A stretch of DNA of 34,705 bases from a virus (lineage: Duplodnaviria > Caudoviricetes), in IMG/VR virus record IMGVR_UViG_3300020045_021233, positions 1 through 34,705 of that record. One strand, written 5' to 3'. Within the stretch, counting starts at the first letter, position 1. Every line of letters begins with the position of its first letter. Made by a program: the position numbers and the translations under genes. This document shows, piece by piece, positions 1 through 27,292 of this stretch. The notes beneath the pieces were generated by a model. The model saw only the letters and a list, made by a program, of their open reading frames with translations. It did not search any database and was not told the DNA's origin.

Positions 1-169
1 AAGCTACACCCGTCCACGGTCCCGGAATCCGGGTATGTGTTCCATAAAACCACCTACAGAATTAAGTGAGGTCACATCAATTGTGTCCCTGGTCTTGCTT
101 GGTCCGGTAATAGAGTTCACCTCTGAGATATTCTCAAAAGCAGATCCATTCCATCTCCGAAACAACGTA
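1..169. repeat. Left arm of 169-nt inverted repeat (partner 397-565); fold-back chimera
   Basis: Reverse complement of 1-169 matches 397-565 at 161/169 positions; mismatches cluster toward the window end. Confidence 0.9.
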
Positions 170-198
170 CCTACACCAGAAATCGCTTTACTAGCCAT
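4..198 (-). pseudogene. N-terminal fragment of a phage tail tube protein (inverted duplicate of the 401-799 gene, carrying the true start MASKAISGVGT)
   Basis: Same peptide as 401..799; preceded by a canonical AGGAGGT SD (206-212, minus strand). Confidence 0.8.
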
Positions 199-218
199 TT
201 ATTTTACCTCCTTTTTTA

Positions 219-398
219 TCACCTCCGTTGGAGGTTTAAGTTAACAATAAAATTTGGATAGCCATTTTCATCCCAATTCAAAAAGTGTGGTCCATTGGCT
301 ATCTGAATACTCGAATATAGTGTCCCGTTCCATGTCTCTTGCGCCCGACCATGCAACGAAGTCCCTATGCTGTTAATCAGTTCAGAAGCCAAAGCATA
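219..398 (-). CDS. C-terminal fragment of a tail terminator / minor capsid-type protein of the foreign phage segment
   Basis: Minus frame reads YALASELINSIGTSLHGRAQETWNGTLYSSIQIANGPHFLNWDENGYPNFIVNLNLQRR*, directly upstream of the tail tube start. Confidence 0.55.
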   Translation of the reverse strand, partial: YALASELINSIGTSLHGRAQETWNGTLYSSIQIANGPHFLNWDENGYPNFIVNLNLQRR

Positions 399-565
399 CG
401 TTGTGTCGGAGATGGAATGGATCTGCTTTTGAGAATATCTCAGAGGTGAACTCTATTACCGGACCAAGCAAGACCAGGGACACAATTGATGTGACCTCAC
501 TTGATTCTGTAGGTGGTTATAGGGAACACATACCCGGATTCCGGGACGGTGGACAGGTTCAGCTT
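397..565. repeat. Right arm of 169-nt inverted repeat
   Basis: See 1-169. Confidence 0.9.
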
Positions 566-799
566 AATATGAATTTTACCCGTGCAACCTATGACAAGAT
601 GAACGCAGACTACGAAAGTAGTGCTTTGGGGTATTATCAGATTGTGTTGCCGGATACAGAACACACGACATTTGACTTTGCCGGATTTGTTACCGAACTT
701 CCTTTGTCTATTTCAGCAGATGATAAAATCACTGCCGATGTGACAATCAAAGTGAGTGGTCGGGTAATTGACGATTCGGGACCAAGTGCCGGAATTTAA
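401..799 (+). CDS. Phage tail tube protein (lambda V-like), 5'-truncated; foreign segment
   Basis: EVNSITGP...RDTIDVTSLDS.GGYREHIPGFRDGG.V.L.MNF...F.GFVT...ITADVTIKVSG pattern typical of tail tube proteins. Confidence 0.8.
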   Translation: MCRRWNGSAFENISEVNSITGPSKTRDTIDVTSLDSVGGYREHIPGFRDGGQVQLNMNFTRATYDKMNADYESSALGYYQIVLPDTEHTTFDFAGFVTELPLSISADDKITADVTIKVSGRVIDDSGPSAGI

Positions 800-864
800 G
801 AAAGTAAATCCTAATCATGGATTTTATTACTTTGCATTATTAATTTTAAATTATATTTCTAATC

Positions 865-1245
865 ATGGGACAATTAACAGCGCAGGATTTATTGAGTAAA
901 TCCAATTTGAAGATTGAAAAAGTTGATTTGGGTGAAGGTAATTTCGTTCACGTAAAACAAATGACTGCCAGAGAGCGTGACAAATGGCAGGGAATGATGG
1001 TTAAGCCGAAGACCAATGACAAAGGTGAGGTTATTGAAGGATATGATAATGACCTGTCTGATTTTAGCACCAAATTAGCAGTATTCACCGTATGTGATGA
1101 AAAAGGTGATTTGTTATTTACTGAGTATGACATTGACAAATTAGCGACTTCAATCAGTGCAAAAATGCTAGGCATTATTGTAGAAGCCGCCAGTGTTTTG
1201 AATAAGGTTTCAGAGGAAGGAAAAAAAGAAAGAGTAAAAAAATAG
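865..1245 (+). CDS. Tail assembly chaperone (G-like) of foreign segment
   Basis: Follows tail tube; V.VKQMTARERD..., TVCDEKG.LLF motifs; ends in A AAA AAA slippery run (1236-1242) whose -1 frame continues IEGLPNKLFQFRLCRELG. Confidence 0.75.
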   Translation: MGQLTAQDLLSKSNLKIEKVDLGEGNFVHVKQMTARERDKWQGMMVKPKTNDKGEVIEGYDNDLSDFSTKLAVFTVCDEKGDLLFTEYDIDKLATSISAKMLGIIVEAASVLNKVSEEGKKERVKK

Positions 1246-1340
1246 AAGGCCTCCCCAACAAACTGTTTCAATTTAGATTGTGCAGGGAGTTGGGGGTCAT
1301 ACACCCTGATTATCTTTTAGACAATTTAACATCAGAGCAA
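1242..1340 (+). CDS. -1 frameshift extension (GT-like) of tail assembly chaperone, truncated by a chimeric junction
   Basis: -1 frame IEGLPNKLFQFRLCRELGVIHPDYLLDNLTSEQ resembles T-segment motifs (F.F.LA.ELG...L...LTS.E). Confidence 0.6.
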
Positions 1341-1723: not shown

Positions 1724-2200
1724 ATGGAAACACTTAACATTACAAAAGAAAATGCTTTAAAAGCATACGGTTCAGCCGACAAAAAAGGAAAATCGATTTT
1801 AGAAAATTTACTTGGAAAAAATGTTTTTCAAAAAGAAATCACAGAACGAGTAAGTTGCTTTGATGATATTTTACAGGAATTATCAATTGATAAATCAGAA
1901 TTTGAAAAGTCATGTAAAGGACTTGAATCAGATGAAGTAGCCTACAGAAAAGCAAAGCTTGTTTGTAAAGCACTAAATGAAGGCTGGGTTCCAGATTGGA
2001 CCAATGGTCAATATGACAAATATTTTCTATGGTTTAAGATGGGTTCTTCTTCGGGCGTCTGTTTCGCGTACAACGGCTACGGTCACTGGTGCACGGTTTC
2101 GGTTGTCGGCTCGCACCTTTGCTTTAAATCTTCAAAATTAGCAGAGTTTGCAGGGAAATTATTTGAACAAGAAATCTATAAACCATTATTTACTTTATAA
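1724..2200 (+). CDS. DGR target protein 1 (158 aa, variable repeat VR1)
   Basis: Contains VR1; paralogue of 2213..2587 (KAlNxxWVPDWT...QY.KY..WF.MGSSSGV...VGS.LCF....AEFAGK.F); no signal peptide or TM segment. Confidence 0.9.
   Translation: METLNITKENALKAYGSADKKGKSILENLLGKNVFQKEITERVSCFDDILQELSIDKSEFEKSCKGLESDEVAYRKAKLVCKALNEGWVPDWTNGQYDKYFLWFKMGSSSGVCFAYNGYGHWCTVSVVGSHLCFKSSKLAEFAGKLFEQEIYKPLFTL
2042..2122 (+). repeat. DGR variable repeat VR1
   Basis: 81-nt copy of TR; 14 of 15 mismatches fall on TR adenines; the exception is at the 3' edge (ctg/ctt). Confidence 0.95.
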
Positions 2201-2212
2201 AATTAATCAATT

Positions 2213-2587
2213 ATGTACACAGAAATCACAACATTTGAAAAAGCCTGCGAAGTTCTAAAACTAGATGCGGCAACAGTTATTCCAGATTTTCAATTTTTTC
2301 CAGAATCCGATAAACAAGCGATGGTAGATCATGCAAAACTTGTAATAATTGCAAAAGCCATTAATGGTGATTGGGTTCCAGACTGGACAGATTATGATCA
2401 GTATAAATATTATCCATGGTTTGAGATGGGTTCTTCTTCGGGCGTCGGTTTCGCGTACGGCGACTACGCTACCTGGCTCACGGGTTCGCGTGTCGGCTCG
2501 CGCCTTTGCTTCGAAACTAGAGAAAAAGCAGAGTTTGCTGGTAAACAATTTGAAGAATTGTATAAAAGCTATTTCGTAAAAGCATAA
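2213..2587 (+). CDS. DGR target protein 2 (124 aa, variable repeat VR2)
   Basis: Contains VR2; paralogue of target 1 lacking its ~38-aa N-terminal extension. Confidence 0.9.
   Translation: MYTEITTFEKACEVLKLDAATVIPDFQFFPESDKQAMVDHAKLVIIAKAINGDWVPDWTDYDQYKYYPWFEMGSSSGVGFAYGDYATWLTGSRVGSRLCFETREKAEFAGKQFEELYKSYFVKA
2429..2509 (+). repeat. DGR variable repeat VR2
   Basis: 81-nt copy of TR; 16 of 17 mismatches fall on TR adenines. Confidence 0.95.
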
Positions 2588-2593
2588 TAAACA

Positions 2594-2790
2594 AAGGTTG
2601 TGCCGTGTAGTTGCTGTAGTTCTTCTTCAGGCGTCAGTTTCGCGTACAACGACTACGATAACTGGAACACGAATTCGAATGTCAGCTCGCACCTGAGCAA
2701 AATATTAAAACACGGCAAACCTTGCAATCATTGCAAAAAATAAATTTTTAACCGGCGCATTAGTAAGTAAAATGAAAATGAGCCAATTAA
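2594..2790 (+). ncRNA. Putative DGR template RNA (TR plus structured flanks/spacer)
   Basis: 2594-2608 pairs with 2710-2723 enclosing TR; hairpin ttgcaa-tca-ttgcaa 2722-2736; stem 2748-2761/2777-2790. Confidence 0.6.
2618..2698 (+). repeat. DGR template repeat (TR)
   Basis: Intergenic, immediately upstream of RT, 21 adenines, five AAC/AAT codons in target frame; ungapped match to VR1 and VR2. Confidence 0.95.
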
Positions 2791-2798
2791 GCAAAGGA

Positions 2799-3842
2799 AT
2801 GAAACGATTAGGAAACATATTTCAAGAAATAATTTCAATAGAAAACCTAGTTCTAGCAGAAAAAAAAGCCAGAAAAGGAAAATCTAGTCAATACGGTGTG
2901 CAAGTATTTGATAAAAATGCCGATGAAAACCTATTGAAATTAAATCAAATGCTATCTGAAAAAACATTCCAAACTTCAACTTATAAAGTATTTCCGGTTT
3001 ACGAACCAAAAGAACGCTTAGTTTATCAATTACCTTATTTTCCAGATAGAATTGTGCATCATGCAATTATGAATCAACTAGAAAAAATGTTTAATTCAGT
3101 GTTCACTTCAGATAGTTACAGCTGCATAAAAGGTCGTGGAATTCATGGTGCATTTTACAATTTAAAAAATGCATTGAAAGATGTAGAAAATACAAAATAT
3201 TGCTTAAAAATTGATATTGTAAAGTTCTATCCAAATGTGAATCACCAAGTTTTAAAAACTCTAATCCGAAAAAAAATAAAGGATCAAGATTTACTTTGGT
3301 TGCTAGATGAAATTATCGATAGTGCCGATGGTTTACCAATTGGAAATTACCTTAGTCAATACTTTGCTAATTTCTATCTAACTTATTTTGATCACTGGCT
3401 AAAAGAGGTGAAAAAAGTAAAATACTATTTCAGATACGCCGATGATATTGTAATTCTTTCAAACAATAAACCAGAATTACACCAACTTCTAGAAGAAATG
3501 AATGTCTATTTATCTGAAAATTTAAAACTAAGGATAAAAGATAATTACCAGGTATTTCCTGTAGAAAAACGCGGAATCGATTTTATTGGTTATGTATTTT
3601 TTCACACGCACATTCTTATTAGAAAATCAATTAAACAAAGTTACGCACGTGCCATTTCTAAAAATAAACCTGCTGCAACATTAGCAGCTTACAACGGATG
3701 GTTAATGCACGCAAATACCACAAACTTAATCAACAAATTACAACCAAATGAACGATACAATAAAGAAGTTTTCCGACTTCAACATAAAACCAATTATAAC
3801 AAATTTCGTAGGCGACAAAATACCGATGCAGAAATTAATTGA
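2799..3842 (+). CDS. DGR reverse transcriptase
   Basis: MKRLGN start, YEPKERLV..LPYFPDRIVHHA, LKIDIVKFYP, GLPIGNYLSQ (DGR-type SQ), YFRYADD, GIDFIGY; no maturase/endonuclease domain; start placed at ATG 2799. Confidence 0.93.
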   Translation: MKRLGNIFQEIISIENLVLAEKKARKGKSSQYGVQVFDKNADENLLKLNQMLSEKTFQTSTYKVFPVYEPKERLVYQLPYFPDRIVHHAIMNQLEKMFNSVFTSDSYSCIKGRGIHGAFYNLKNALKDVENTKYCLKIDIVKFYPNVNHQVLKTLIRKKIKDQDLLWLLDEIIDSADGLPIGNYLSQYFANFYLTYFDHWLKEVKKVKYYFRYADDIVILSNNKPELHQLLEEMNVYLSENLKLRIKDNYQVFPVEKRGIDFIGYVFFHTHILIRKSIKQSYARAISKNKPAATLAAYNGWLMHANTTNLINKLQPNERYNKEVFRLQHKTNYNKFRRRQNTDAEIN

Positions 3843-4056
3843 CAAAAATATAATTGTCAAAGATTTCAAATTTGAAAATTCAAAATTTGAAGGAAAAGAT
3901 AAAAGAGTTGATATTCAAATTGAATATCGTGAAGAACCAAGACTGATAATGACTGATGCAAAATACATAATTCAGTTATTAGAAAGAATACCAAAAGACA
4001 ATTTACCATTTTCAACTACAATAATCAAAAACGGCGAACACTATGAATTCGCGTAA
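3748..4056 (+). CDS. Small beta-rich protein overlapping RT 3' end; candidate DGR accessory factor
   Basis: 102 aa, KKFSDFNIKP...IIVKDFK...IQIEY...LPFSTTIIK...YEF; 95-nt overlap with RT; not helical like Avd. Confidence 0.65.
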   Translation: MNDTIKKFSDFNIKPIITNFVGDKIPMQKLIDKNIIVKDFKFENSKFEGKDKRVDIQIEYREEPRLIMTDAKYIIQLLERIPKDNLPFSTTIIKNGEHYEFA

Positions 4057-4062
4057 ATTCAA

Positions 4063-4981
4063 ATGGATAACTTAATTAATAAAATTGCTGATTCTGAAAG
4101 AATATTTCTTCAAGCTGTTAAGAAATTTAAGCCTTCTGTAATAATTGCTTTAGTTTCTGGTGGTGATGATAGTATGGCAATGTATTGTGTAGCAAATTTA
4201 ATTGGAAAAATTGATCATGTTGTGCATGTTGATACAACAACTGGAATAGAAGCAACAACTGAATTTGTAAAACAAAATGTAAATCACGATTTAATAATTG
4301 CTAGAACAAATGAAGAAACTTTTGAAGAAATAGTTTTAAAAAATGGTTTTCCTGGTGCTGGTCAGCATCAAAATATGTACATAAGATTAAAAGAACGTGC
4401 TTTAAGAATAGTACAACGTAGATTTCAATATGATGGAAGCTTTTGTCGAATTGATAGTACAACCGCTTATAAAAAAAATGTTCCATTAGTCTATCATCCA
4501 GATTACCCAAATATTGAATCTTTGGTAATAAAAAAACCAAATCGTAAAATAATGTTTATTTCTGGTGGAAGAAAAGATGAAAGCATTCGGCGTATGGGAA
4601 CTGTAAAAGAAATTCATAAAGAAGGTAATCAAGTGTGGGTTTCGCTAATTGCTAATTGGAACAAGTCAGATATATATCAATTACAAAAAAAATATAATCT
4701 TAAAAGAAGTCCAACAAGCATTTTATTAGGAAGAAGCGGTGAGTGTAACTGTGGATCTTATGGATTTCCAGAAGAAGTAGATGAAATGAAATATTTTTTC
4801 CCAGATGATAAAAATGTAAATATGATTATTAGGCTTCAAAATGAATTAAAGCAATCTGGTCATAAATATTGCACTTATGGACATTCTGGAAATAACAGAA
4901 AATTTAATTCGGAAAAAAAAATCAATTCCGCACTTATGTAGCACTTGTATAAATAATCCTAAAGCATTAATTAATAACTAA
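4063..4981 (+). CDS. PAPS-reductase-family (PP-loop) protein, frameshifted near the C-terminus
   Basis: SGGDDS PP-loop, HVDTTTG, GGRKDESIRR, SGECNCG; annotated frame stops at 4941, but the +1 frame after the A9 run (4913-4921) gives SIPHLCSTCINNPKALINN* ending 4981. Confidence 0.75.
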
Positions 4982-5368: not shown

Positions 5369-7102
5369 ATGCAACCAACCCAACAACAATTAAATTCAGT
5401 TCCGTTCCAGTACGCAAACGATGTGCGAACTGGTAAAATAATCGTTGGAAAACGCATCAAGCAAGCGGTGGAACGTTTCTACACCTGGATAGAAAACGCC
5501 GAAACCGATGGCTATATTCTGGACCACGAAAAAGGAATGAAAATTATAAATTTTTATCCTTCTTTTCTAAATCACACCATCGGTAAATTAGCAGGTAAAC
5601 CTTTCGAATTAGCACCATTTCAACAATTCACAATGTACAATTTGTTTGGATGGATAAACGAAAAGACTGGTTATCGCCGAATAAACACCGTTTACGACAA
5701 ACGCGCAAAGAAGAACGGAAAAACAGCAGAAATGGCTGGTTTGGCTTTGTACTGTTTGTCTTTTGATATGGAAATGGAAGCGCAAATCTACGTTGGTGCA
5801 ACCAAAGAAGAACAGGCGCGCATTTGTTGGAAACAAGCTAAAATGTACATCGAAAGTCCTGTTGCAAATCCTGCATTACGAAATATGGGTTTCTATTGTC
5901 AGCAAAAAGTAATAGGTTTTAAACGTACCGGATCTACAATGATGCCTTTGGGTGGCGATTCTAAAACGCAAGATGGTGTAAACTGTCATTTAGGTATTAT
6001 CGATGAATATCACGGCCACAAAGACGATTCTGTAAAAGAAAATCTAGAATCATCTACAGTACAGCGTTCACAACCAATTATCTACCAAATTACAACAGCT
6101 GGAGCCAATATTCAATCCGCTTGTAAACGTTATGAAGAAAGTGTTATCGAAGTTTTAGAAGGTAGAAATGTAGATCACTCACTTTGGATAATGATTCATG
6201 ATATAGATCAAGAAGATTTAGCAACTCCAGAAAGTTGGGAAAACTCGGAATTGTGGTGTAAAGCAAATCCGCTGCTTGGAAATGGTTTGGCTTTAGAAGG
6301 AATTCAAAAAGAATACACCAAAGCAATAAATCAAGCTTCCAAAATTCGAAACTTCAAAACTAAAAATTTAAACATGTGGGTGGACCAGCAATTCGACTGG
6401 ATTCCAACTGACATCTGGATGCGTAATAAAGTAGATATTATTCCGTTATCAATATTCACAAAACTAGGAAGTTACGCAGGATTAGATTTATCGACAACAA
6501 CCGATTTATCAGCATTTTCAATCCTTTCGGAACCGAATGATTTTGGCGAACGATTTTTAAAGGTTTGGTTGTTTTGTCCCAAAAATACAATCGAACGTAG
6601 AAGTAAAGAAGATCGTGTACCATATCAGTATTGGGCTGATAATGGTTATATTATTGCAACGCCTGGTGATGTAATTGATTATGCCGAAATTGAAAAAGTT
6701 ATTCTAAAAAATTATTACAGCTACAATGTAAAACGTATCGGTTTCGACAGATACAATGCCTGGGATTTAATCCAGCGATTACAGGAAGCAAATTTAAACG
6801 TATCAGAATTTAGTCAAGCCATTGGTGTGATTTCCGCACCAACAAAAGAATTCGAAAAGCTAGTAAGTTCAGATAAAATTAAACATGATGGCAATCCGGC
6901 ATTAGCTTGGATGCTCGCTTCGTGTGATATTTATCGCGATGCTAACGAAAATATAAAAGTACACAAAGGTCGTTCTAGTGCAAATGGTCGCCGTGTAGAT
7001 GGAATTATTGCAACAATAAATGCACTAGGTGAATCTATGTCAACACCAGAAGAAACAAACGAATCATATTATAATAAAGAAGATTCAGAATTTATTTGTT
7101 AA
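5369..7102 (+). CDS. terL: Terminase large subunit
   Basis: FELAPFQQF, KRAKKNGKT Walker A, GIIDEYH Walker B, ITTAG, GLDLSTTTDL, RVDGIIA. Confidence 0.95.
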   Translation: MQPTQQQLNSVPFQYANDVRTGKIIVGKRIKQAVERFYTWIENAETDGYILDHEKGMKIINFYPSFLNHTIGKLAGKPFELAPFQQFTMYNLFGWINEKTGYRRINTVYDKRAKKNGKTAEMAGLALYCLSFDMEMEAQIYVGATKEEQARICWKQAKMYIESPVANPALRNMGFYCQQKVIGFKRTGSTMMPLGGDSKTQDGVNCHLGIIDEYHGHKDDSVKENLESSTVQRSQPIIYQITTAGANIQSACKRYEESVIEVLEGRNVDHSLWIMIHDIDQEDLATPESWENSELWCKANPLLGNGLALEGIQKEYTKAINQASKIRNFKTKNLNMWVDQQFDWIPTDIWMRNKVDIIPLSIFTKLGSYAGLDLSTTTDLSAFSILSEPNDFGERFLKVWLFCPKNTIERRSKEDRVPYQYWADNGYIIATPGDVIDYAEIEKVILKNYYSYNVKRIGFDRYNAWDLIQRLQEANLNVSEFSQAIGVISAPTKEFEKLVSSDKIKHDGNPALAWMLASCDIYRDANENIKVHKGRSSANGRRVDGIIATINALGESMSTPEETNESYYNKEDSEFIC

Positions 7103-8008: not shown

Positions 8009-8027
8009 TTAAAATTTTACTTTCTTC

Positions 8028-8077
8028 ATTAAGTTGAATTATTCAACCATTTAAAAAGCACCGCAAAACTATTTTTA
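8028..8077 (+). promoter_or_regulatory. Putative activator-dependent late promoter, copy 1 (upstream of portal)
   Basis: ATTAAGTTGAATTATTCAACCATT (8028-8051; palindromic core GTTGAAT-T-ATTCAAC), with TATTTTTA -7-like box at 8070. Confidence 0.65.
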
Positions 8078-8098
8078 CACTTTAAATACATAAGTGTA

Positions 8099-13382: not shown

Positions 13383-13802
13383 ATGGCTGGAAATACTTAT
13401 GCCGGAAAAAATCTAAGAATTAGAATTGATGGAAAAACAGTTTTCCATGCTACAGAATGTTCGTTCACTACTTCTAGAAGTATGGAATCTATTGCTTCAA
13501 AAGATACGAATGGTGAACAAGTTACACCAGGTAACTACACTTGGAGTGTTTCAACTAACTTTTTAGTTGCCAATATTCCTACAGCTTCTACAACTCAAGT
13601 TGGGACTAAGCAAATCTTAGATACTTACCAAGCCGGAACTGAAGTAGAAGTTCAATTTACAACAGAAATTGTTGGTGATGTAGTTATTACTGGTCAAGCG
13701 TATATTGAAGGTATTAATATGTCGGCGCCAACTAACGGTGTTGCTACTGGAGATAGTTCGTTTAAAGGAAACGGCGATTTCGTAACTGAAGTTGTTGTAT
13801 AA
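13383..13802 (+). CDS. Major tail (tube) protein
   Basis: GKNLRI, HATECSF, SKDT, WSVS, GQAYIE...SAP..G.AT....FKGNG. Confidence 0.85.
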   Translation: MAGNTYAGKNLRIRIDGKTVFHATECSFTTSRSMESIASKDTNGEQVTPGNYTWSVSTNFLVANIPTASTTQVGTKQILDTYQAGTEVEVQFTTEIVGDVVITGQAYIEGINMSAPTNGVATGDSSFKGNGDFVTEVVV

Positions 13803-14149
13803 TGAATGATTTACAATTAAAATTAGGTTCTAAAAGTTTCAAGCTAAAATTTGGCTTGAAACTTTTAAGAATTCTTGGTGAAAAATGGAAGTTACCAGGA
13901 ATAAATGAAGTGGTAGCAAAAATTTCAATTCTAGATCAAGCTAATTCTAATCTAACGTTTGAGCAGTTAGATGTTCTAGAAGATTTAATTTGTGTAGCTA
14001 TTCACGCTGGTGGACATGATTATTCAGAATTGAAAGATATTGAAATCATTGATGAGTTTTTTAAAGATCCATATGCGTTACAAGATTTAACTAGACAGTT
14101 AATTGAATCTTTACCGCAGCAGCAACCCGATGAAAATCTGGGAAAGTAG
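13802..14149 (+). CDS. Tail assembly chaperone (G-like)
   Basis: After tail tube; ends ...ENLGK* on GGGAAAG slippery site. Confidence 0.8.
   Translation: MNDLQLKLGSKSFKLKFGLKLLRILGEKWKLPGINEVVAKISILDQANSNLTFEQLDVLEDLICVAIHAGGHDYSELKDIEIIDEFFKDPYALQDLTRQLIESLPQQQPDENLGK
14140..14146 (+). other. Programmed -1 ribosomal frameshift site G GGA AAG
   Basis: Same heptamer as lambda G/T; -1 frame open (VENGDKTEIVVNLTWDQ) into ORF 14182..14529. Confidence 0.85.
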
Positions 14150-14529
14150 AAAACGGTGACAAAACCGAAATAGTTGTTAATTTGACTTGGGATCAAATGG
14201 AAGAAATTGCATTTGGCGAAATGAGAATGACTTTTGATGAGTTTTATAATTTAACGCCTCGAAGTTTTTCTAATGCAGTTAACGGTTATAGAAAAAAAGA
14301 AGAAACGTTAAGTCGAGAACGTTTTATGATTATGCGAAAATTAATGTTTGCATCATTAAAACCTTATTCTTCTAGTGGTTTTGTAGAAACCGATATAATG
14401 GAATTTCCTTGGGAAGAAAAAATACTCAAAGAATTATCTGAAGAAAAAGCAGCTCAAGCATTAATTGATATAGAAAATATAGAAAATTTCTGGAAAAAAT
14501 ACGACGATAAAAAAGTTGGTAAAGCATAA
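14146..14529 (+). CDS. Tail assembly chaperone frameshift extension (GT-like)
   Basis: FGEMRMTFDEFYNLTPRSF...GY, FPWE; in -1 frame of upstream gene. Confidence 0.8.
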   Translation, partial: VENGDKTEIVVNLTWDQMEEIAFGEMRMTFDEFYNLTPRSFSNAVNGYRKKEETLSRERFMIMRKLMFASLKPYSSSGFVETDIMEFPWEEKILKELSEEKAAQALIDIENIENFWKKYDDKKVGKA

Positions 14530-14564
14530 ATTTTGTTTATTTAGTTTGGTAAATTGATTGGTGG

Positions 14565-14593
14565 AAACCTTAGTGTAATGCTAAGGTTTTTTT
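14565..14593 (+). terminator. Intrinsic terminator
   Basis: aaaccttag-tgtaatg-ctaaggttt followed by T run. Confidence 0.75.
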
Positions 14594-14643
14594 ATTAAGT
14601 TGAATTATTCAACCATTAAACATAAATGTTAATTCTATTTTCG
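14594..14643 (+). promoter_or_regulatory. Putative late promoter, copy 2
   Basis: Identical 24-mer (14594-14617); TATTTTCG at 14636, same offset as copy 1. Confidence 0.65.
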
Positions 14644-14666
14644 AGTTCTAAATAATAATTTAAATT

Positions 14667-15056
14667 ATGAAAACAATGAAAAATCTTAAATTCCTATTTG
14701 TTGCATTATTTGCAATCTTTAGTTTATCGATGTTTGCATCGGTTGAAGTCAAGAAAATTGACAAAAACAATTTGACAGAATTTGTCAAAACACAAAATGT
14801 AATTGTATCACAAATTACACCTTCAGTTTTATTCCAGGAAGCAAATTTAAATTTCGTCCAGAAGGATCTAATTTTTACGAATTCCAATCAAACTAAAAGG
14901 GATGTAATTCTTGAAAAATCTTTTTATCTAGAAACTATTACTTATCGATTCAGTGATAATTATAAACAGATAAAAATGCCGAAAAGTAATTACGTTATTG
15001 ACAAACAGAAAATTCTTTATGATAAAGGAATTCTGTATAATCATCTTCAAATTTAA
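14667..15056 (+). CDS. Moron-like exported protein with Sec signal peptide
   Basis: MKNLKFLFVALFAIFSLSMFA signal; sits between tail chaperone and tape measure, bracketed by duplicated terminator and promoter. Confidence 0.65.
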   Translation: MKTMKNLKFLFVALFAIFSLSMFASVEVKKIDKNNLTEFVKTQNVIVSQITPSVLFQEANLNFVQKDLIFTNSNQTKRDVILEKSFYLETITYRFSDNYKQIKMPKSNYVIDKQKILYDKGILYNHLQI

Positions 15057-15092
15057 TATTGTAGTTTGTTAATTTGGTTTATAGGTTAGTTG

Positions 15093-15123
15093 AAAACCTT
15101 AGCGTTACGCTAAGGTTTTTTTT
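15093..15123 (+). terminator. Intrinsic terminator
   Basis: aaaaccttagcg-tta-cgctaaggtttt plus T run. Confidence 0.8.
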
Positions 15124-15173
15124 ATTAAGTTGAATTATTCAACCATTTTAACAAGGTCGTGAAAGTACTTTTA
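15124..15173 (+). promoter_or_regulatory. Putative late promoter, copy 3 (upstream of tape measure)
   Basis: Identical 24-mer (15124-15147); TACTTTTA at 15166, same offset. Confidence 0.65.
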
Positions 15174-15197
15174 AACCTTACAAAAAAGTAGTTTTTC

Positions 15198-17759
15198 ATG
15201 GCTTCATTGGCTTCAATAAATGTACGATTTTCTGTTGATTTAAAGGATTTTAGCAGTCAAATGCAAAATTCATTACGTCAGATAGATTCTGCTGGACAAA
15301 AGTTACAGTCTATTGGTCGTGGATTATCTGCTGCAGTTACTTTGCCAATCGTTGGGTTAGGTATTGCATCATTAAAAACTTTTGGTGATATACAGGCTTT
15401 ACAAAAAGGTCTTATTTCTGTAATGGGTTCTTCTGAAGCGGCGGCCGTAGAATTCGAAAAACTTAAAGAAGTTGCAAAGCTTCCAGGATTAGGATTAGAA
15501 GAAGCCGTTCGTGGTTCTGTAAATTTACAAGCTGCAGGCTTTTCTGCTGATGAAGCGCGCCGTGCTTTGCTATCTTTCGGAAATGCATTAGCAACCGTTG
15601 GTAAAGGTAAACGTGAACTAGATCTTGTTACGCTTGCAATTACTCAATTAAATAATAAGTCTGGAGGTTTTGGTCAAGATTTACGACAGTTAACAGAGCA
15701 GTTGCCACAACTTCGTGGTGCTTTGCAAAATGCATTTGGTACAGTTGATACTGAAACTATTTCTAAAAGTGGTGTTACTGGTAAACAAGTTGTAAATGCA
15801 TTGATCACCGAATTCGAAAAACTTCCTAAAGTTACCGGTGGTTTAAATAATGCTTTCGAAAACTTTGCCGATTCTTCCAAATTGGCTTTATCATCTTTTG
15901 GTGATTCTATAAACAAAGCATTCAATGTTGAAGGTTTGCTTAATTCTTTAGGTGAAACACTTTCTAAGTTAGCAGAAAAATTTTCTAATTTATCACCAGA
16001 AGCACAAAAAACCATTGTTGTTTTCGCTGGTGTTGCTGCTGCAATTGGACCAGTATTAATTGCTATTGGTGCAGTTACTTCATTTGTTCCAAGTGTAGTA
16101 ACTGGTTTGTTAGCGATTAGAACTGCTGTTGCGTCTTTAACTGCAACTATTGCGGCTAATCCTATTGGTGCATTGGCTGTTGCTTTGTCTTTGGTTGTTG
16201 GTTCTTACTTATTGTTTAATCAAGAAACTGAAAAAGCAATAACTAAAGTTGATACTTTAAATCAATTAAATGAACAAGCGGCTTCGATTATAAGCGCGCA
16301 AAAAAGTCAGTTAGAACAATTTTTATCGGTTGCTCGAGATGAAAATAAAAGTAAAGCCGAAAGAGAAAAAGCAATTCGTTCTTTAAATAAAATTGCTCCA
16401 GAATATTTAGGGAATCTAAAATTAGAAACGATCAATACTGATGAAGCAAAAGAAAGTATTGAGCGTTACAATATTGCATTATTAGAAGCTGGAAAAGCTA
16501 AAGCGGCACAATCTGCTTTACAAGCTAATTACGCTAAGCAATTGCAAGCCGAATTAAAGTATGAAAATGCAACCGCAGGAACTGCTGAAAAAATAGTTGC
16601 AGCACAAGAAAAATTAAATGCATCGCGTGGAAACGATAACTATTTTCAAGTTTTACGTGAAGTAAATAAATTGATTCAAGAGCAACAAGGTTTACTTAAT
16701 GCTACAATTGATCCATTAAAAAAAGAAGAAGCAATAATTTTATCAGTATTTAATAAATACAAAGATAAATTAGGTTTAATCAAAGATGTGACTACTGCAA
16801 CAATGGATTTGTCAAAATCTAACGAAAAAGTATTTGCACCTGGAACCGTAGCTTTCTATGAAGCACAAATAAAACTTTTGCAAACATTGCAAAACGAAAC
16901 TGCAAAATCTTCTGAATCTTGGGATGCTTACGGAAAATCGATTGATGCTGTACAAAAGAAAATTGATTTAATTACTGGTAAGATTGGTGTTAAACTACCA
17001 AAGCCACAAATTGATACAACAGATCCAATTGCACCGCCAGCTTTTTCATTACAAGATTTAGGAGACCAAAAAACTTATTTTGAAAATATAAGACTACAAT
17101 ATTCTAAAACTTCTGATGAATATAAAAAATTAACTGAACAAATTAATAATACCGAAATTAAAATTAATGCTATTGAAGGTGTTGAAGAATTTAAAACAAC
17201 GGTTGATGATATTAAAACTAAAGTTGGTGAATTTAGTTCAGAAGTTTCTTCTTCAATAACTACCGGTATTTCTCAATTTGCTGAAGGATTTACACAAGCT
17301 ATCATTCAAGGTGGTAACTTTTTTAATTCTGCAGGTAACTTATTGTTGCAAACTATTGGTAATATAATGGTTGAACTTGGTAAAGCAGCAATTAATATTG
17401 GTGTTACCATGTTAGCTATTAAAGCAGCTTTTAAAACTCCTTTAGCAGCAATAGCGGCTGGAGCAGCTTTAATTTTAGCAGGTACACTTGTAAAGTCACA
17501 AGTGAATGATGCTGGTGGTTTTGCTAATGGTGGAATGGTTGGTGGAACATCATTTACTGGTGATAAACTTTTCGCGCGTGTAAACAGCGGCGAAATGATT
17601 TTAAACCAAAAACAACAATCCAATTTATCTAGGATGATTAATCCAGCAGTTACTGCAGGTGATGTTGCTATTCAATTAATTGGTGGTTTAAAAATTACTG
17701 GTTCTGATTTGGAATTGGTTTTAATGAGAAACGATATAAGAAACAATCGTATAAAATAA
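15198..17759 (+). CDS. Tape measure protein
   Basis: MASLASINVRF, Ala/Gly-rich helical, hydrophobic segments, C-terminal FANGG.VGG...GD...ARVNSGEMILN. Confidence 0.92.
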   Translation: MASLASINVRFSVDLKDFSSQMQNSLRQIDSAGQKLQSIGRGLSAAVTLPIVGLGIASLKTFGDIQALQKGLISVMGSSEAAAVEFEKLKEVAKLPGLGLEEAVRGSVNLQAAGFSADEARRALLSFGNALATVGKGKRELDLVTLAITQLNNKSGGFGQDLRQLTEQLPQLRGALQNAFGTVDTETISKSGVTGKQVVNALITEFEKLPKVTGGLNNAFENFADSSKLALSSFGDSINKAFNVEGLLNSLGETLSKLAEKFSNLSPEAQKTIVVFAGVAAAIGPVLIAIGAVTSFVPSVVTGLLAIRTAVASLTATIAANPIGALAVALSLVVGSYLLFNQETEKAITKVDTLNQLNEQAASIISAQKSQLEQFLSVARDENKSKAEREKAIRSLNKIAPEYLGNLKLETINTDEAKESIERYNIALLEAGKAKAAQSALQANYAKQLQAELKYENATAGTAEKIVAAQEKLNASRGNDNYFQVLREVNKLIQEQQGLLNATIDPLKKEEAIILSVFNKYKDKLGLIKDVTTATMDLSKSNEKVFAPGTVAFYEAQIKLLQTLQNETAKSSESWDAYGKSIDAVQKKIDLITGKIGVKLPKPQIDTTDPIAPPAFSLQDLGDQKTYFENIRLQYSKTSDEYKKLTEQINNTEIKINAIEGVEEFKTTVDDIKTKVGEFSSEVSSSITTGISQFAEGFTQAIIQGGNFFNSAGNLLLQTIGNIMVELGKAAINIGVTMLAIKAAFKTPLAAIAAGAALILAGTLVKSQVNDAGGFANGGMVGGTSFTGDKLFARVNSGEMILNQKQQSNLSRMINPAVTAGDVAIQLIGGLKITGSDLELVLMRNDIRNNRIK

Positions 17760-20422
17760 TGGCAAATAATATTACCATAGAATTATTGGGGCAACCAGCC
17801 GAATTTGAAACTTTATGGTTTGAAGTTTCAAATTCGGCTATTGGCTTTGAATATGCATGGAAAAAAGTATTTGTTCCTAATACTGCTATTCTAGTAGGTC
17901 ATGTGCAACTTGGTGCAACTATTGCCGATACTTTGCAAAATTTAAAAGATAATTATGTTGCTCATCATTCTATTGCAAATGTTACTTATGAAATAATTGG
18001 TACAAAATTACATTTAATATTTTCACCTGTTGGAACTTATGAAGTAACGGTTATTAGTACGCCAAATGAAGATATTGTTTTTAATAGTGAATTGCTTCCA
18101 GATACGCCACCAATTACTATTCCGGAATTGGTTTTAAATGATTTGAGTATTGAAATTATTGATACTTACGAAAACGAATTGCCATTGTTTATTGAGTTTA
18201 CGCAAAATAGTTCGCCTAAATTATCTTTTGATTCTGGTGATGATTTACTAAAGTCTTTTATGACTAGTAAATTAACTTTTAATATTCTAGTTACCGATGG
18301 TGTAGACGCACATTTTAAGCATTTATACACTGGTGATGAAAAACGTTATTTGGTTAAATTAACGGCTATTGATGAAGAAGAAAATACACAATTGCTTTGG
18401 CAAGGTTATTTATTACCAGATCAGTATAATGAGCCTTATGTTGGCGGTGCTTATTTTGTAGAATTTACCGCCATCGATATGTTGGCCAATTTAAAAAACA
18501 GATTTTTAAAACCTTGGTATTATCATCAAAAAATTACTCTAGTTGAGTTTATTGCAATTTGCTTAAAAGAAACTGGTATCAATCAAAACTTTTTAGTTGC
18601 TCCAGCATTGGTTCCAAATAATCCATTGTACAGTTTTCAAGATTTAAACATTGAATTAAAGCAATATATCTCGAATGATAAATACACCGATTTATATACT
18701 ATTCTTACGGATGTTTTAGAAAGTAATTTATTGACAATTTACAATTTTAAAGGCTATTGGAATATTGTTGGTTTCAATAATAAAAGAAAAACTTCTATCA
18801 CATTTGAGCAATACAATTTAGATGGTGAACAATTGCAAAACGTTATTTTGAATAAACGATTTATACCCTTAATCAATTCTAATGGTTCTGTAAATATGTC
18901 GGTTAAATCTCCGTTTAAAACAGTAAAAATAGATTTCAATTCTAAAGGTCGTAAAAATATATTTTCTGAAAATGTAGTTGTTATTCCTAATAAAGAACAA
19001 TACGGTACATACTTTTTTCAAAATGGTGCCTATTTGCAAACAATTACATCTTTACCAATTGATTTACCTTCTGTTCATTATCTTAATAATGATTTTAAAG
19101 ATTGGATTGTTAATTTGAGTTTAACACAACCTTATTACAGAAGATTTAAAGAGCGTTTTTTTAGTGTTAATTATTATAATTTAGGTACATATGTAGCTAC
19201 TGAATCTATTGCTTTAAATAACTATTTTGAATGTCCCGAAAAGCCATCAGTAAAAGCTGGATTAGATTATAAGTTTGAATTTGATATCGAACATAGTGTA
19301 ACAAGTTCTTTATCTCAAAGTGCATTGACTGAAAGATTGAAAAATGGTTATTATGATAAAACTGCACTATTTCAAATATTTTTAAATGATGTAGAAATTC
19401 TTTCAAATAGACCTGCTTTTGCTTCAGATAGTAATTTAGTTTATAAAATGACTATTGAGCCAACTGCTGGAACTGGATATGATGTAAAGTTTTCAATTTC
19501 TTTAGATTATAAATTTGAAGAGTCTGGTGAAATAAAATTCAGATTATTAGTTCCTATTTTGGGTGATAGTTCAGATAATTCAACTGCTAAATTTTTAATT
19601 AGTAATACATTAATTTCAAAGCTGCAAATTTCTGTTGAAGAAGATTATGATGTTTTGCAAAATGTTGTTGCTGTAAGGGATATTAATTTTACAACTTTAT
19701 TAGATTACAGTTGCAAATTTACTTCTACAATTGATAATTCTTTAGAAAACAATATTGGGCTTGGACGTCCTATTTCTGATGTTTATTTTCATCTTGTTTC
19801 TCGAACTACTAATCCTGGTACTTTTCAAGATTTGCACTTTTTTCCGCCTGCGTCAATTCTTATTTTGACTTTAAAAATGTGGGATGTAAATGATGTTGTT
19901 TACACTGATTTATTTTCGAACGGATTCAATAAAACTTTATTCCTTACTTCTGGAACTGATGAAAAAGAGTTTATAAGTATTTATGGTTATAAAGATATTA
20001 CCGGTTATTCCAGAATGGGATATTTATTCGATTATGAAGGCCGTCCAAACATACCAAAAAAGTATACTAAAAATCTAGATGTTGAAACTACAGATGTTCT
20101 TCAATACATGAAAATTATGTATGCCGATGAAGATTTAAGTGATCGTGAAAAATGGAGTATAGTTGGCGAAATGGAATCGTTTGATAATTTCAATAAAACA
20201 ATGGCTAAAATATTGCATAACCTTTATTCTGGACCAACTTATGTGCAAGAAACTACGGCTTTAAATTTGGTTTTTCCAGATGATTTAATCAAGTTTTATT
20301 TTGATGAAGTAGATAGAAAATTTATTCCAACGCGATTAGAATTAGATTTATTTGAAGGAAAAACAAGAATCACGCAAACAGAAGATGTGTATCAAAATGT
20401 AACTGACATAACCTATGAGTAA
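17759..20422 (+). CDS. Large tail tip / baseplate hub protein
   Basis: Follows TMP; LLWQGYLLPDQYNEPY...VEFTAID.L..LK motif. Confidence 0.65.
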   Translation: MANNITIELLGQPAEFETLWFEVSNSAIGFEYAWKKVFVPNTAILVGHVQLGATIADTLQNLKDNYVAHHSIANVTYEIIGTKLHLIFSPVGTYEVTVISTPNEDIVFNSELLPDTPPITIPELVLNDLSIEIIDTYENELPLFIEFTQNSSPKLSFDSGDDLLKSFMTSKLTFNILVTDGVDAHFKHLYTGDEKRYLVKLTAIDEEENTQLLWQGYLLPDQYNEPYVGGAYFVEFTAIDMLANLKNRFLKPWYYHQKITLVEFIAICLKETGINQNFLVAPALVPNNPLYSFQDLNIELKQYISNDKYTDLYTILTDVLESNLLTIYNFKGYWNIVGFNNKRKTSITFEQYNLDGEQLQNVILNKRFIPLINSNGSVNMSVKSPFKTVKIDFNSKGRKNIFSENVVVIPNKEQYGTYFFQNGAYLQTITSLPIDLPSVHYLNNDFKDWIVNLSLTQPYYRRFKERFFSVNYYNLGTYVATESIALNNYFECPEKPSVKAGLDYKFEFDIEHSVTSSLSQSALTERLKNGYYDKTALFQIFLNDVEILSNRPAFASDSNLVYKMTIEPTAGTGYDVKFSISLDYKFEESGEIKFRLLVPILGDSSDNSTAKFLISNTLISKLQISVEEDYDVLQNVVAVRDINFTTLLDYSCKFTSTIDNSLENNIGLGRPISDVYFHLVSRTTNPGTFQDLHFFPPASILILTLKMWDVNDVVYTDLFSNGFNKTLFLTSGTDEKEFISIYGYKDITGYSRMGYLFDYEGRPNIPKKYTKNLDVETTDVLQYMKIMYADEDLSDREKWSIVGEMESFDNFNKTMAKILHNLYSGPTYVQETTALNLVFPDDLIKFYFDEVDRKFIPTRLELDLFEGKTRITQTEDVYQNVTDITYE

Positions 20423-20984
20423 GATAGCTACAATAGAATTTTTAAAAACCATTGATAGGCCAACTATTACTGCTGCAATAGCATTGCCAGAAACGATATC
20501 AATTGGTTATTTAGATAATAACCAATATGAAAGTGAAGTGGTTATAAATGATTTAAGTTCTGATAATCTAGAAGCTTTTAAAAAAGTCATTGATTTTATG
20601 TCATTTTCAGTTTTAGAAGATGCTATCATTTGGAATATGGAATTAGTAGATAAAACTTTTTATCTAGCAAAATCCTACGTTCGTGATGCTGAAAGCACAG
20701 GAACCGTAACCGATGTTACTGTTGGAACACCATTAATAGTACAGTTTGAAACACCGAGTTTCACCGTTTTTAATATTACAGAATTATCACTTTGGTACGA
20801 TCAAGCATTTGATCCAGCAGAATTAACAGCTTTAGAGAATGTTGGAATAACTGTTACTGGCGATGGAAAACAATTTACTATTGATAATACAATAGAATGC
20901 AAAGTTTATTTTAAAAAACCAGATGCTGTTACGGATGTTTATGTAATAAACAATCAAGCTTTAAATCAAGTAATACCAATATAA
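20415..20984 (+). CDS. Putative tail protein
   Basis: Overlap-coupled in tail operon; beta-rich, acidic. Confidence 0.55.
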   Translation: MSKIATIEFLKTIDRPTITAAIALPETISIGYLDNNQYESEVVINDLSSDNLEAFKKVIDFMSFSVLEDAIIWNMELVDKTFYLAKSYVRDAESTGTVTDVTVGTPLIVQFETPSFTVFNITELSLWYDQAFDPAELTALENVGITVTGDGKQFTIDNTIECKVYFKKPDAVTDVYVINNQALNQVIPI

Positions 20985-21130
20985 TGGCAGAAAATAACAC
21001 AATCCACAAGATAAGATTTACACCTAGAAAGTTCTTTGTTCCAAATGGTTTTTTTGGTAAATACTTAGTAACTCTTACTGGAAATAAATTAACAACCTTA
21101 ACTGGTAAAAATATTAAAACAAATGGCTAA
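20984..21130 (+). CDS. Small tail-associated protein (48 aa, MAENNTIHKIRFTPRKF...YLVTLTGNKLTTLTGKNIKTNG), not in ORF track
   Basis: TAATG coupling to previous gene; overlaps next start; repeated LxTLTG motif. Confidence 0.55.
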   Translation: MAENNTIHKIRFTPRKFFVPNGFFGKYLVTLTGNKLTTLTGKNIKTNG

Positions 21131-25846: not shown

Positions 25847-27058
25847 ATGACATTATCTTTTCGATTGGATTCTAACTCTGAAAATAGTGATGGTTTTCCG
25901 CTGGTGCTGAAAATTACTCACAAAGGTATTCAGCGAAGAAAAATTATTGGTTACTCTAAAAAAAATCACTTCGATTTGGATGCCGAAATGATAAATACTA
26001 AACATCCGGATTATGAAATTTTGGCTCCAAAAATACTTAATTTTAAGTTGAAGGCGCGAAAAATGATTTATAAAAACTACACTGATGCTGATAAATTTCT
26101 GCAAGATCTATTGGCGGCCGATATTGAAACGATAACTTTTAATGAAGCTGCAACTGAAATTATCGCCGAAATGGAAAAATTAGCGGCGCAATTTGGAACT
26201 ATTAAAGATTTGAAAGGCCAAAACCGATTGAAAGGAAATATTAAAGTTTATCAAAATGTAAAGGCGCAATTTGAAAATTTTTCTAGTGATGTCCTTCTGG
26301 TGAATTTAGATTATAATTTGCTGTTGCGATTTAAAAACTACCAACTCGGAATTGGAAATTCTAAAAATACGGTGCACAATTATTTACGGACCATTCGAGC
26401 AATGTATAAAAAGGCAGCGATGAAATATAAAATTCCTGCTGCTAATCCGTTTGAAGGTGTGTTTGCCGGATTGAGCCAAAAAAGTTACAACAGTAAAAAG
26501 AAAAACATTACCAAAGAAGATATTTTAAAACTAGAATTGGCGGTGGTTTCTCAAGCACAAAGGAAATATCTCGATATGTGGTTGCTTCAGTTTTATTTTG
26601 GTGGATGTGATTTAATTGATATTTACTACTTGTATAAAAAGAGTTTGCGCCGTGGCCGTGTTTACTTTGAACGTAGTAAAACCGATTCTGGATTGCCGAT
26701 TGATTTGAAAGTGCATCCAAAAGCCAAAGCAATACTAGATCGTTACGAAAATACTACCGATGAATGGTTATTTCCATTTGATAAAAAGAAGGAAATCTAC
26801 GAAAGCTTTAGAAGTGCCTACGCAAAAGCATTGAAACAAATACAAAAGCAGCTTGAAATTGAAGTGTTACCTGGTGGTGGTGCTATTGGTGTGAAAGTCG
26901 CTAGGCATACATTTGCAACGATTGGTAAAAATCTATTGATTCATGAAGATATTTTGCGTGAATTGATGGGCCACGAACGTAATGAAGTTGATAATTATTA
27001 TAAGGATCGTTTTTCTGAAGCGGTTCGTGATGAAGCTTTGTTTAAGATTATTGGTTAG
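25847..27058 (+). CDS. int: Tyrosine integrase (Bacteroidota type, arm-binding + SAM-like + catalytic)
   Basis: FPLVLKITH N-terminus, NTVHNYLRTIRA, FERSKT, KVARHTFAT, ELMGH, DNYY. Confidence 0.9.
   Translation: MTLSFRLDSNSENSDGFPLVLKITHKGIQRRKIIGYSKKNHFDLDAEMINTKHPDYEILAPKILNFKLKARKMIYKNYTDADKFLQDLLAADIETITFNEAATEIIAEMEKLAAQFGTIKDLKGQNRLKGNIKVYQNVKAQFENFSSDVLLVNLDYNLLLRFKNYQLGIGNSKNTVHNYLRTIRAMYKKAAMKYKIPAANPFEGVFAGLSQKSYNSKKKNITKEDILKLELAVVSQAQRKYLDMWLLQFYFGGCDLIDIYYLYKKSLRRGRVYFERSKTDSGLPIDLKVHPKAKAILDRYENTTDEWLFPFDKKKEIYESFRSAYAKALKQIQKQLEIEVLPGGGAIGVKVARHTFATIGKNLLIHEDILRELMGHERNEVDNYYKDRFSEAVRDEALFKIIG
27026..27053 (+). repeat. Direct repeat copy A (3' end of integrase)
   Basis: cgtgatgaagctttgtttaagattattg; 26/28 identical to 27775-27802. 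Confidence 0.85.
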
Positions 27059-27291
27059 TTTTTATCTAACCATTCGTATAAATATGATAAAGTAAAACCC
27101 ATCGTACGTAAATTTGTAGATAAATGCATTGCCGGTATTTCTTTTTCTTGACCTCTGAAAGTTATAGTTCTAATACAGTTTGGACATTTATAATGTACAT
27201 GCGAAGTACCTTTGTGACGTTTTTTTTCACAATCATGTTCGGTCAAAAATCTTTCCCAATCACTTGTTTTTATGGGTCTATTATTACCCAA
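27055..27291 (-). CDS. hicA: HicA-like toxin
   Basis: 78 aa; ERFL...C...R.KGTSH..Y...RTITF....EIP..L...LR.MG pattern of HicA dsRBD-fold toxins. Confidence 0.7.
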   Translation of the reverse strand: MGNNRPIKTSDWERFLTEHDCEKKRHKGTSHVHYKCPNCIRTITFRGQEKEIPAMHLSTNLRTMGFTLSYLYEWLDKN

Positions 27292-27292
27292 A

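What the first reader, a model, noticed from the sequence alone, without database searches (positions are those of the whole stretch)
1724..4056. Compact DGR hypermutating two tandem small non-tail paralogues
Seen: one TR (2618-2698) matches two VRs without gaps; 14/15 and 16/17 mismatches are at TR adenines, and the two VRs carry different substitutions, implying independent retrohoming. The targets are 158 and 124 aa with no signal peptide, TM segment or fibre repeats, and lie far from the tail genes. Established: the model phage DGR (Bordetella BPP-1) diversifies the C-terminal CLec domain of a tail receptor-binding protein for tropism switching. Inference: this DGR diversifies an intracellular binding surface instead, possibly a heterodimer with two variable faces. 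Candidate roles are anti-defence, host-factor capture or shielding of the packaging machinery. The VGS(H/R)LCF end resembles the GFR motif that closes CLec VRs, suggesting a minimal CLec-like fold. Whether this target family is already catalogued cannot be judged without a search.
Basis: partly seen in the sequence, partly recalled or inferred. Interest (0 to 1): 0.92.

Follow-up and report, generated by a model that had tools for sequence, protein, structure and literature searches.

The report
Phage hypermutator aimed at early proteins
A temperate phage, likely of Flavobacterium, carries an intact diversity-generating retroelement that rewrites a ten-codon patch in two small paired non-tail proteins that likely act inside the infected cell; this target family was already catalogued as 'non-structural, unknown' and its job is still untested.

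Summary
Observation confirmed: TR 2619-2694 matches VR1 and VR2 with 12/12 and 14/14 mismatches at adenines. The cassette target1-target2-TR-RT-small ORF recurs across Bacteroidota phages (55 of 64 viral loci have a TR/VR pair), usually among early recombination/replication genes; five near-complete relatives have no tail target. The family is catalogued: Roux 2021 cluster PC_00007 ('Phage_other', DGR clade 1), and a homologue is the remote second target in LoVEphage/BI-TP1, apparently the non-structural Quimbyvirus target of Benler 2021. This scan also met it before on another genome (e1-3545259). Added here: only the VR segment resembles CLec3 tail targets, while the rest models as a helical scaffold with no solved match; first and last paralogues are separate lineages, occur fused, and give weak complex support; covarying stems enclose the TR; the downstream ORF looks like a phage SSB and is fused to RT in relatives. 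Best reading: diversified intracellular binders, most likely counter-defence (inferred). The packaging-shield idea is not supported. New member of a known kind with an open function.

The parts
1724..2200 (+). Target 1 (158 aa), PHROG 11581 / Roux PC_00007 family, with an N-terminal two-helix extension
2043..2118 (+). VR1 (freely varying part 2070-2103); ends about 80 nt before the stop codon
2213..2587 (+). Target 2 (124 aa), paralogue of target 1
2430..2505 (+). VR2 (freely varying part 2457-2490)
2619..2694 (+). Template repeat, 19 adenines, 15 of them freely varying in the VRs (10 codons, about 8e8 protein variants per target, no stop codon reachable)
   Evidence: the variant number is my arithmetic, 4^5 x 15^5
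2596..2784 (+). Predicted DGR RNA: 2596-2608 pairs with 2710-2721 and encloses the TR; hairpin 2723-2735; stem about 2754-2784
2799..3842 (+). DGR reverse transcriptase (347 aa from the conserved start, YADD); relatives fall in Roux RT cluster t122, clade 1
3748..4056 (+). Conserved small ORF (102 aa, PHROG 19665), phage-SSB-like by predicted model, likely the accessory factor; fused to RT in relatives

Best explanation
This is an intact DGR whose RT likely copies the TR RNA with errors at adenines and writes the copy into two small paralogous genes, which likely encode soluble, early-expressed binding proteins, possibly acting as a pair, that most likely bind and neutralise a fast-changing host factor such as a defence protein. 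Shown: TR/VR adenine bias, cassette anatomy and conservation, family identity, absence of a tail target, purifying constraint on the VR framework. Established by analogy (BPP-1 and Bacteroides DGRs): mutagenic retrohoming. Inferred: early expression and non-virion location (about 70%), a T1-T2 complex (about 40%), counter-defence as the role (about 40%), an SSB-like accessory in place of Avd (about 60%).
For: Adenine bias in 96 distinct TR-VR pairs: 1278 of 1782 A sites mismatched against 61 of 5519 other sites. Among 9 close gut-type relatives, pairwise differences are 52% at A sites, 0.3-1% at other VR sites and 3-7% outside the VR. Of 55 viral loci with RT, 37 have a recombination, replication or transposition gene on the same strand and none on the opposite strand; 17 have virion genes on the opposite strand and 1 on the same. 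No remote VR in the window or in 5 of 5 records of 98-100% completeness. In BT-TP2 the homologue directly follows the repressor/cro-like pair and is a remote VR. In BI-TP1 it is a remote VR among methyltransferases and a tRNA ligase, the setting from which Benler 2021 inferred a phage-host conflict role. Roux: 1.6% of PC_00007 predicted structural. No lipobox in 227 family proteins, 1 with a hydrophobic N-terminus. Pairing: nearest neighbour has the same cassette position in 147 of 148 cases; 7 of 17 two-domain proteins have a first-like then last-like order; complex score 0.32 against best control 0.00, runs agree in at least 81% of contacts, partner pLDDT at least 70, rated weak (mark reached by 116 of 157 solved and 2 of 215 mismatched pairs, but at 0.60 or under by only 18 solved pairs and both mismatches).
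Against: No ligand, expression or virion-proteome data exist here. The Roux preprint read PC_00007 as likely unknown structural proteins, and in this window the cassette lies between terS and terL, co-oriented with late genes. The neighbours are mostly recombination and replication genes, not known anti-defence genes. Single-gene versions exist (BI-TP1, BT-TP2, Versailles, crAss cr53_1), so pairing is not obligatory; 10 of 17 two-domain proteins are not first-plus-last; no homodimer control was folded. 8 of 227 family proteins have a hydrophobic 19-mer above 1.6. Present-day activity of this copy was not shown: no run held it closely.
Confidence: 0.5

Rival explanations
1. The targets are uncharacterised virion accessory proteins (head or neck decoration, auxiliary adhesins) diversified for surface binding, as the Roux preprint guessed.
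For: Their VR is templated by the same TR as tail CLec3 proteins in BI-TP1, BT-TP2 and L145. This copy sits between terS and terL. Most viral DGR targets are tail proteins.
Against: Same strand as early genes in 37 of 55 loci and opposite to virion genes in 17; directly after cro-like gene in BT-TP2; the same cassette occurs in lambdoid, Mu-like and primase-type elements; 1.6% predicted structural.
Confidence: 0.15
2. The proteins act against competing phages or mobile elements (superinfection exclusion or sensing), binding a variable protein of the rival inside the lysogen or co-infected cell.
For: The carriers examined are largely temperate (integrases or transposition genes); hypervariability suits a viral ligand as well as a host one (inference).
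Against: Placement downstream of cro-like and recombination genes suggests lytic, not lysogenic, expression (inference); no PADLOC match for the targets; no membrane anchor.
Confidence: 0.15
3. They are adaptors that tune phage replication, recombination or transcription to different hosts by binding a divergent host housekeeping protein (host-range adaptation after entry).
For: Commonest neighbours are RecT/Bet, exonuclease, SbcC-like, helicase loader, primase and transposition genes; one family member carries a C-terminal HTH (P0162).
Against: Housekeeping targets change slowly, which fits poorly with 65% substitution at free sites and no preferred residue there (inference).
Confidence: 0.15
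4. The cassette is a selfish or neutral module and the variable patch has no selected ligand.
For: Free positions show near-flat residue use; the cassette moves between unrelated phage backbones.
Against: Mutable framework codons are held at Gly, Gly and Arg (35, 36 and 33 of 36 VRs); both genes persist after loss of TR and RT in L039 and L056. The fixed sites could also lie outside the usual retrohomed tract.
Confidence: 0.05

Closest known systems
Roux et al. 2021 DGR target cluster PC_00007 ('Phage_other'), RT cluster REF_DGR_[t122]FP929032.1, DGR clade 1 (PMC8144416 supplements)
   Same: 5 of 6 IMG ids of my related loci are listed with PC_00007 targets, VR position 0.70-0.77 in four, and RT lengths equal to those I find; viral, FCB hosts.
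   Different: Listed only as non-structural/unknown; in the parts I read there is no account of pairing, gene context, fold, TR RNA stems or the downstream ORF.
Quimbyvirus / LoVEphage remote second DGR target (Benler 2021 PMC8008677; Dahlman 2025 PMC12629997)
   Same: BI-TP1 gp84 (93-95% identical to LoVEphage proteins) is about 30% identical to target 2, shares PHROG 11581, is a VR of the tail DGR's TR, lies among methyltransferases and a tRNA ligase, and its RT is split over three frames as described for Quimbyvirus.
   Different: There it is one remote gene sharing a full-length TR with a tail protein; here a dedicated cassette has two adjacent targets, a shorter TR and no tail target. Identity with Quimbyvirus ORF80/84 is inferred from context; that genome was not compared.
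Wu et al. 2018 Lineage 3 / CLec3 DGRs without avd, e.g. Alistipes shahii FP929032 (PMC5758913)
   Same: Target-TR-RT order, no avd; that record names the RT cluster of our relatives and has a 531-bp non-adjacent target and no GC-rich hairpin after VR.
   Different: Its main target is about 390 aa; ours are 124-158 aa with a helix after the VR; Wu lists no accessory gene downstream of RT in that row.
Bordetella BPP-1 DGR (mtd-avd-TR-brt)
   Same: TR/VR adenine-specific mutagenesis and an RT next to the TR.
   Different: Target is a tail-fibre CLec; Avd present; hairpin after VR. Here no Avd-family hit, no significant hairpin after either VR, non-tail targets.

Membership tests
DGR | TR and VR repeats differing almost only at TR adenines | tested here: met
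   12/12 and 14/14; 1278/1782 against 61/5519 in relatives
DGR | Intact RT of the DGR clade next to the TR | tested here: met
   RVT_1 and YADD; relatives at 60-70% identity are in Roux's DGR clade 1; no RT tree built here
DGR | VR in frame in the 3' part of a gene, variation compatible with coding | tested here: met
   (no stop codon reachable)
DGR | Avd or other known accessory gene (HRDC, MSL, CH1) | tested here: inconclusive
   No Pfam family for the downstream ORF or its 25-row alignment; SSB-like by atlas model; Lineage 3 lacks avd; no direct comparison with Wu's CH1 or PAG sequences
DGR | Ongoing retrohoming in this copy | tested here: inconclusive
   Only contigs of relatives were available
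Roux PC_00007 target cluster | Clusters with listed PC_00007 targets and RT cluster t122 | tested here: met
   5 of 6 ids found, all PC_00007; match by genome id and RT length, not by sequence; the table was cut when stored
CLec3 VR class | VR sequence shared with CLec3-type tail targets | tested here: met
   One TR serves both a tail-type target and family members in BI-TP1, BT-TP2 and L145; 29-column match, probability 82%. The CLec3 label comes from Wu's row for the RT cluster's reference
C-type lectin fold | Two helices plus the beta-sheet core around the VR | tested here: inconclusive
   Models (mean pLDDT 82 and 78) are helical with VR pLDDT under 50; best Z 4.5 and 4.0, no lectin listed; profile likeness limited to the VR. 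Benler reported C-type lectin domains in both Quimbyvirus targets
Phage tail receptor-binding DGR target | Encoded in the tail module, fibre or tail domains | tested here: not met
   Tail genes lie at 13383-23429; no tail PHROG for either target
Phage tail receptor-binding DGR target | Present in the virion | not testable with these tools
   needs virion proteomics
Anti-defence protein | Inhibits a host defence system | not testable with these tools
   context only

The most novel reading that the evidence does not exclude
Bacteroidota phages grafted the variable segment of a tail lectin onto an unrelated small helical scaffold, duplicated it and built a two-chain, antibody-like binder with two independently mutated faces (about 8e8 variants each) that works inside the cell against host defence proteins, driven by a DGR that uses an SSB-like protein instead of Avd. 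It would be a phage adaptive counter-immunity system on a non-lectin fold.
Probability: 0.15. Interest if true: 0.88.

Novelty: new member of a known kind. Interest (0 to 1): 0.5.

Why it matters
Phage DGRs are known for tail-fibre tropism switching; why some hypermutate non-structural genes has been an open question since Benler 2021 and Dahlman 2025. This cassette is the cleanest case, because it has no tail target, and the family is large (2,824 clusters at 50% identity with E up to 1e-10). Cultured phages (BT-TP2, BI-TP1, LoVEphage) carry homologues, so the question is directly testable. A 124-aa scaffold with a compact Avd-free DGR would also be useful for protein engineering.

Tried and rejected
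Read-level variation: no run held half of the stretch's words (best 0.14) and the four runs laid were contigs of relatives, so activity of this copy is untested. Solved-structure searches by sequence and fold gave nothing significant for either target or, by sequence, the small ORF; this does not show a new fold. The shared top VIA hit (SSV19 tail chain 7xdi_D, Z 4.5 and 4.0, rmsd 3.3-3.6, about 70 aligned) is within noise. Pfam, NCBIfam and PADLOC gave no credible family for the targets. The ESM Atlas gave only unnamed viral clusters for target 2. No significant hairpin after either VR (z 1.14 and -0.04); the whole TR region is not unusually stable on its own (z -0.95). The promoter scan used a sigma-70 consensus unsuited to Bacteroidota and was not used. 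BLAST for remote VRs in 15 records missed 9 of 30 known adjacent VRs, so it was replaced by an exhaustive scan of 5 records. No plasmid record matched target 2; no cultured-phage record matched the small ORF. The 'tail protein' label on the Versailles homologue is best explained by a VR-only match to PHROG 5302. The adjacent PAPS-reductase-like gene is not part of the cassette (unique to the window among the loci clustered). Paper searches found no functional study of this family or of an SSB-like DGR accessory; subscription papers and bioRxiv supplements are not covered, and Roux's figures and PC summary sheet could not be seen.

Full report
OBSERVATION. The TR/VR counts are exactly as reported: 14 of 15 and 16 of 17 mismatches at TR adenines over 2618-2698, and 12 of 12 and 14 of 14 over the core 2619-2694. 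No other VR exists on either strand of the window. The order is target 1 (1724-2200), target 2 (2213-2587), TR, RT (2799-3842), small ORF (3748-4056). The window is a temperate long-tailed phage record: terminase, portal, capsid, tail 13383-23429, lysis, integrase, repressor, DnaB. The closest named homologues of the targets are from Flavobacterium, so that host is likely but inferred.

THE CASSETTE IS CONSERVED AND DIVERSIFIED. A scan with target 2 gave 64 viral loci. 55 have a TR/VR pair; with the window, 47 have two VRs, 6 one and 3 three (some loci are duplicates, pairs were dereplicated). In 96 distinct pairs 1278 of 1782 adenine sites differ against 61 of 5519 other sites. Of 53 viral loci with a whole RT ORF, 51 also have the small ORF. 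In named genomes (best 79 loci of 104 stretches) 52 have target, TR/VR, RT and small ORF, with up to five tandem targets; nearly all titles are Bacteroidota. Only the 15 adenines at 2646-2679 vary freely (65% substituted in 37 VRs); four flanking adenines are nearly fixed at G. That gives 10 variable codons and about 8e8 variants per protein, with no stop reachable (my arithmetic).

CONTEXT POINTS TO AN EARLY, NON-VIRION ROLE. I annotated 83 of the neighbour clusters. Of 55 viral loci with RT, 37 have a recombination, replication or transposition gene on the cassette's strand and none on the other; 17 have neck or portal/minor-head genes on the opposite strand and one on the same; 5 have a terminase gene nearby. 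The terS-terL position in this window is therefore the exception, and the packaging-shield idea loses its basis. An exhaustive scan of five records of 98-100% completeness found only the two adjacent VRs. In cultured BT-TP2 the homologue follows the repressor and cro-like genes and is a remote VR of the tail-module DGR. In BI-TP1, gp84 is a remote VR among methyltransferases, a TIGR02757 gene and a tRNA ligase. Timing of expression is inferred from position only.

IT IS CATALOGUED. Five of six IMG ids of my loci appear in Roux's DGR table with target PC_00007, RT cluster t122 and clade 1, with RT lengths equal to mine (match by id and length; the table was cut when stored). Roux classed PC_00007 as non-structural/unknown, 1.6% predicted structural, while allowing uncharacterised structural proteins; the preprint leaned to the latter. 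Benler 2021 described a Quimbyvirus second target in a methyltransferase/tRNA-ligase island, with an RT in three frames, and inferred a conflict role. BI-TP1 shows the same layout and split RT, its gp84 is 93-95% identical to LoVEphage proteins, and Dahlman 2025 cites Benler for LoVEphage and reports four phages with a second VR near counter-defence genes. So the published non-structural target is very likely this family, though I did not compare the Quimbyvirus genome itself.

FOLD. AlphaFold models (mean pLDDT 82 and 78) show a helical scaffold, the VR at pLDDT under 50 and a long helix after it. No solved structure matches; BFVD matches are uncharacterised phage proteins, including crAss-like ones. 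The VR is of tail-lectin type: in L145 one TR serves a 384-aa tail-type target over 115 nt and two family members over only its last 77 nt. Profile likeness between family and tail target is limited to 29 residues. The simplest reading is a CLec3-type variable segment on a different scaffold, or a very reduced lectin; this is not settled, and Benler called the Quimbyvirus targets C-type lectin domains.

PAIRING. In a FastTree of 74 two-target cassettes (VR columns removed; 15 near-duplicate loci and cassettes without exactly two targets left out) the nearest neighbour shares the cassette position in 147 of 148 cases and is never the own partner. Related cassettes are not independent, and first-position proteins fall in more than one group. 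Of 17 two-domain proteins that I picked from the top 150 hits, 7 read first-like then last-like, 9 have both halves on one side and one is reversed; they have no genomic context and may include gene-calling artefacts. The T1+T2 prediction scored 0.32 against a best control of 0.00, with at least 81% contact agreement and partner pLDDT of at least 70; it is weak support (116 of 157 solved and 2 of 215 mismatched pairs reach the mark, but at 0.60 or under only 18 solved pairs and both mismatches). No homodimer control was run, and single-gene versions exist.

OTHER PARTS. The TR is enclosed by a 12-pair stem, followed by two more stems. On 33 sequences 97.4% of cells pair, 15 of 21 pairs change on both sides, and slid controls give 39-49% (I drew the structure from this alignment, so the controls lean in its favour). 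The small ORF resembles phage SSB clusters (PF17427 on 44% of the nearest cluster; TM 0.88-0.91 to predicted models) and also a part of RT-domain proteins; its profile hits the C-terminal part of the BI-TP1 and BT-TP2 RTs (E 1.9e-9 and 6e-12). It is likely the accessory factor; Wu 2018 notes that Lineage 3 lacks avd and that 20% of RTs have unexplained C-terminal extensions.

MECHANISM AND VERDICT. TR RNA is likely reverse-transcribed with adenine errors, helped by the SSB-like protein, and recombined into each VR separately. The products likely present a variable patch inside the cell early in infection, most likely against host defence proteins; host-adaptor, anti-competitor and virion-accessory roles remain open. 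It is a new member of a catalogued DGR group with unknown function, met before by this scan on another genome; interest 0.5.

PAPERS SEEN. PMC8008677: passages and supplement passages. PMC8144416: passages, sections 8 and 9 whole, supplement passages and rows; its preprint: passages. PMC5758913: passages, section 10, one supplement row. PMC12629997, PMC12694917, 10.1101/2024.11.15.621889, PMC10743442, PMC12135933: passages. Others: search listings only. Figures were not available; Roux's PC summary and bioRxiv supplements may hold more on PC_00007. BPP-1 details rest on passages.

Noticed in passing
window 1-1340: Likely assembly chimera: a second tail tube and chaperone set (GC 44% in 1-800) with a 169-nt, 95% inverted repeat (1-169 / 397-565) is joined to terS, whose homology to a relative starts only near 1326; the phage's own tail genes are at 13383-14529.
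   Followed up: partly
L145:4866-9547 (Rikenellaceae MAG): Intermediate cassette: two small targets plus a 384-aa tail-type target on one TR; the small ones use only the 3' 77 nt.
   Followed up: partly
L147:118-243 and 44946-45224 (BT-TP2): Unannotated gene across the record's ends, right after the cro-like gene, is a second VR of the phage's DGR.
   Followed up: yes
L039 and L056, about 5476-6345: Both target genes are kept but TR, RT and small ORF are replaced by an HNH-family gene.
   Followed up: no
L119, L092, L120, L137: Arrays of up to five targets, or extra targets 3-4 kb away, on one TR.
   Followed up: no
contig 24 of run X4: A close relative (about 85-90% alike) appears to carry two copies of the target 1 gene.
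   Followed up: no
window 4063-4941: PAPS-reductase-like gene between the DGR and terL, not conserved with the cassette; possibly DNA modification.
   Followed up: no
window 27055-27691 (-): HicA-like ORF (below Pfam cut-off) with a 132-aa upstream partner beside the integrase, likely a toxin-antitoxin pair.
   Followed up: no
window 8021-8084, 14535-14650, 15064-15180: Three copies of an intergenic repeat (TTAAGTTGAATTATTCAACCATT), two preceded by a hairpin; possibly late regulatory sites.
   Followed up: no
window 21123-23429: 768-aa tail-end protein with a weak GDSL/SGNH esterase hit, a candidate receptor-binding protein not touched by the DGR.
   Followed up: no
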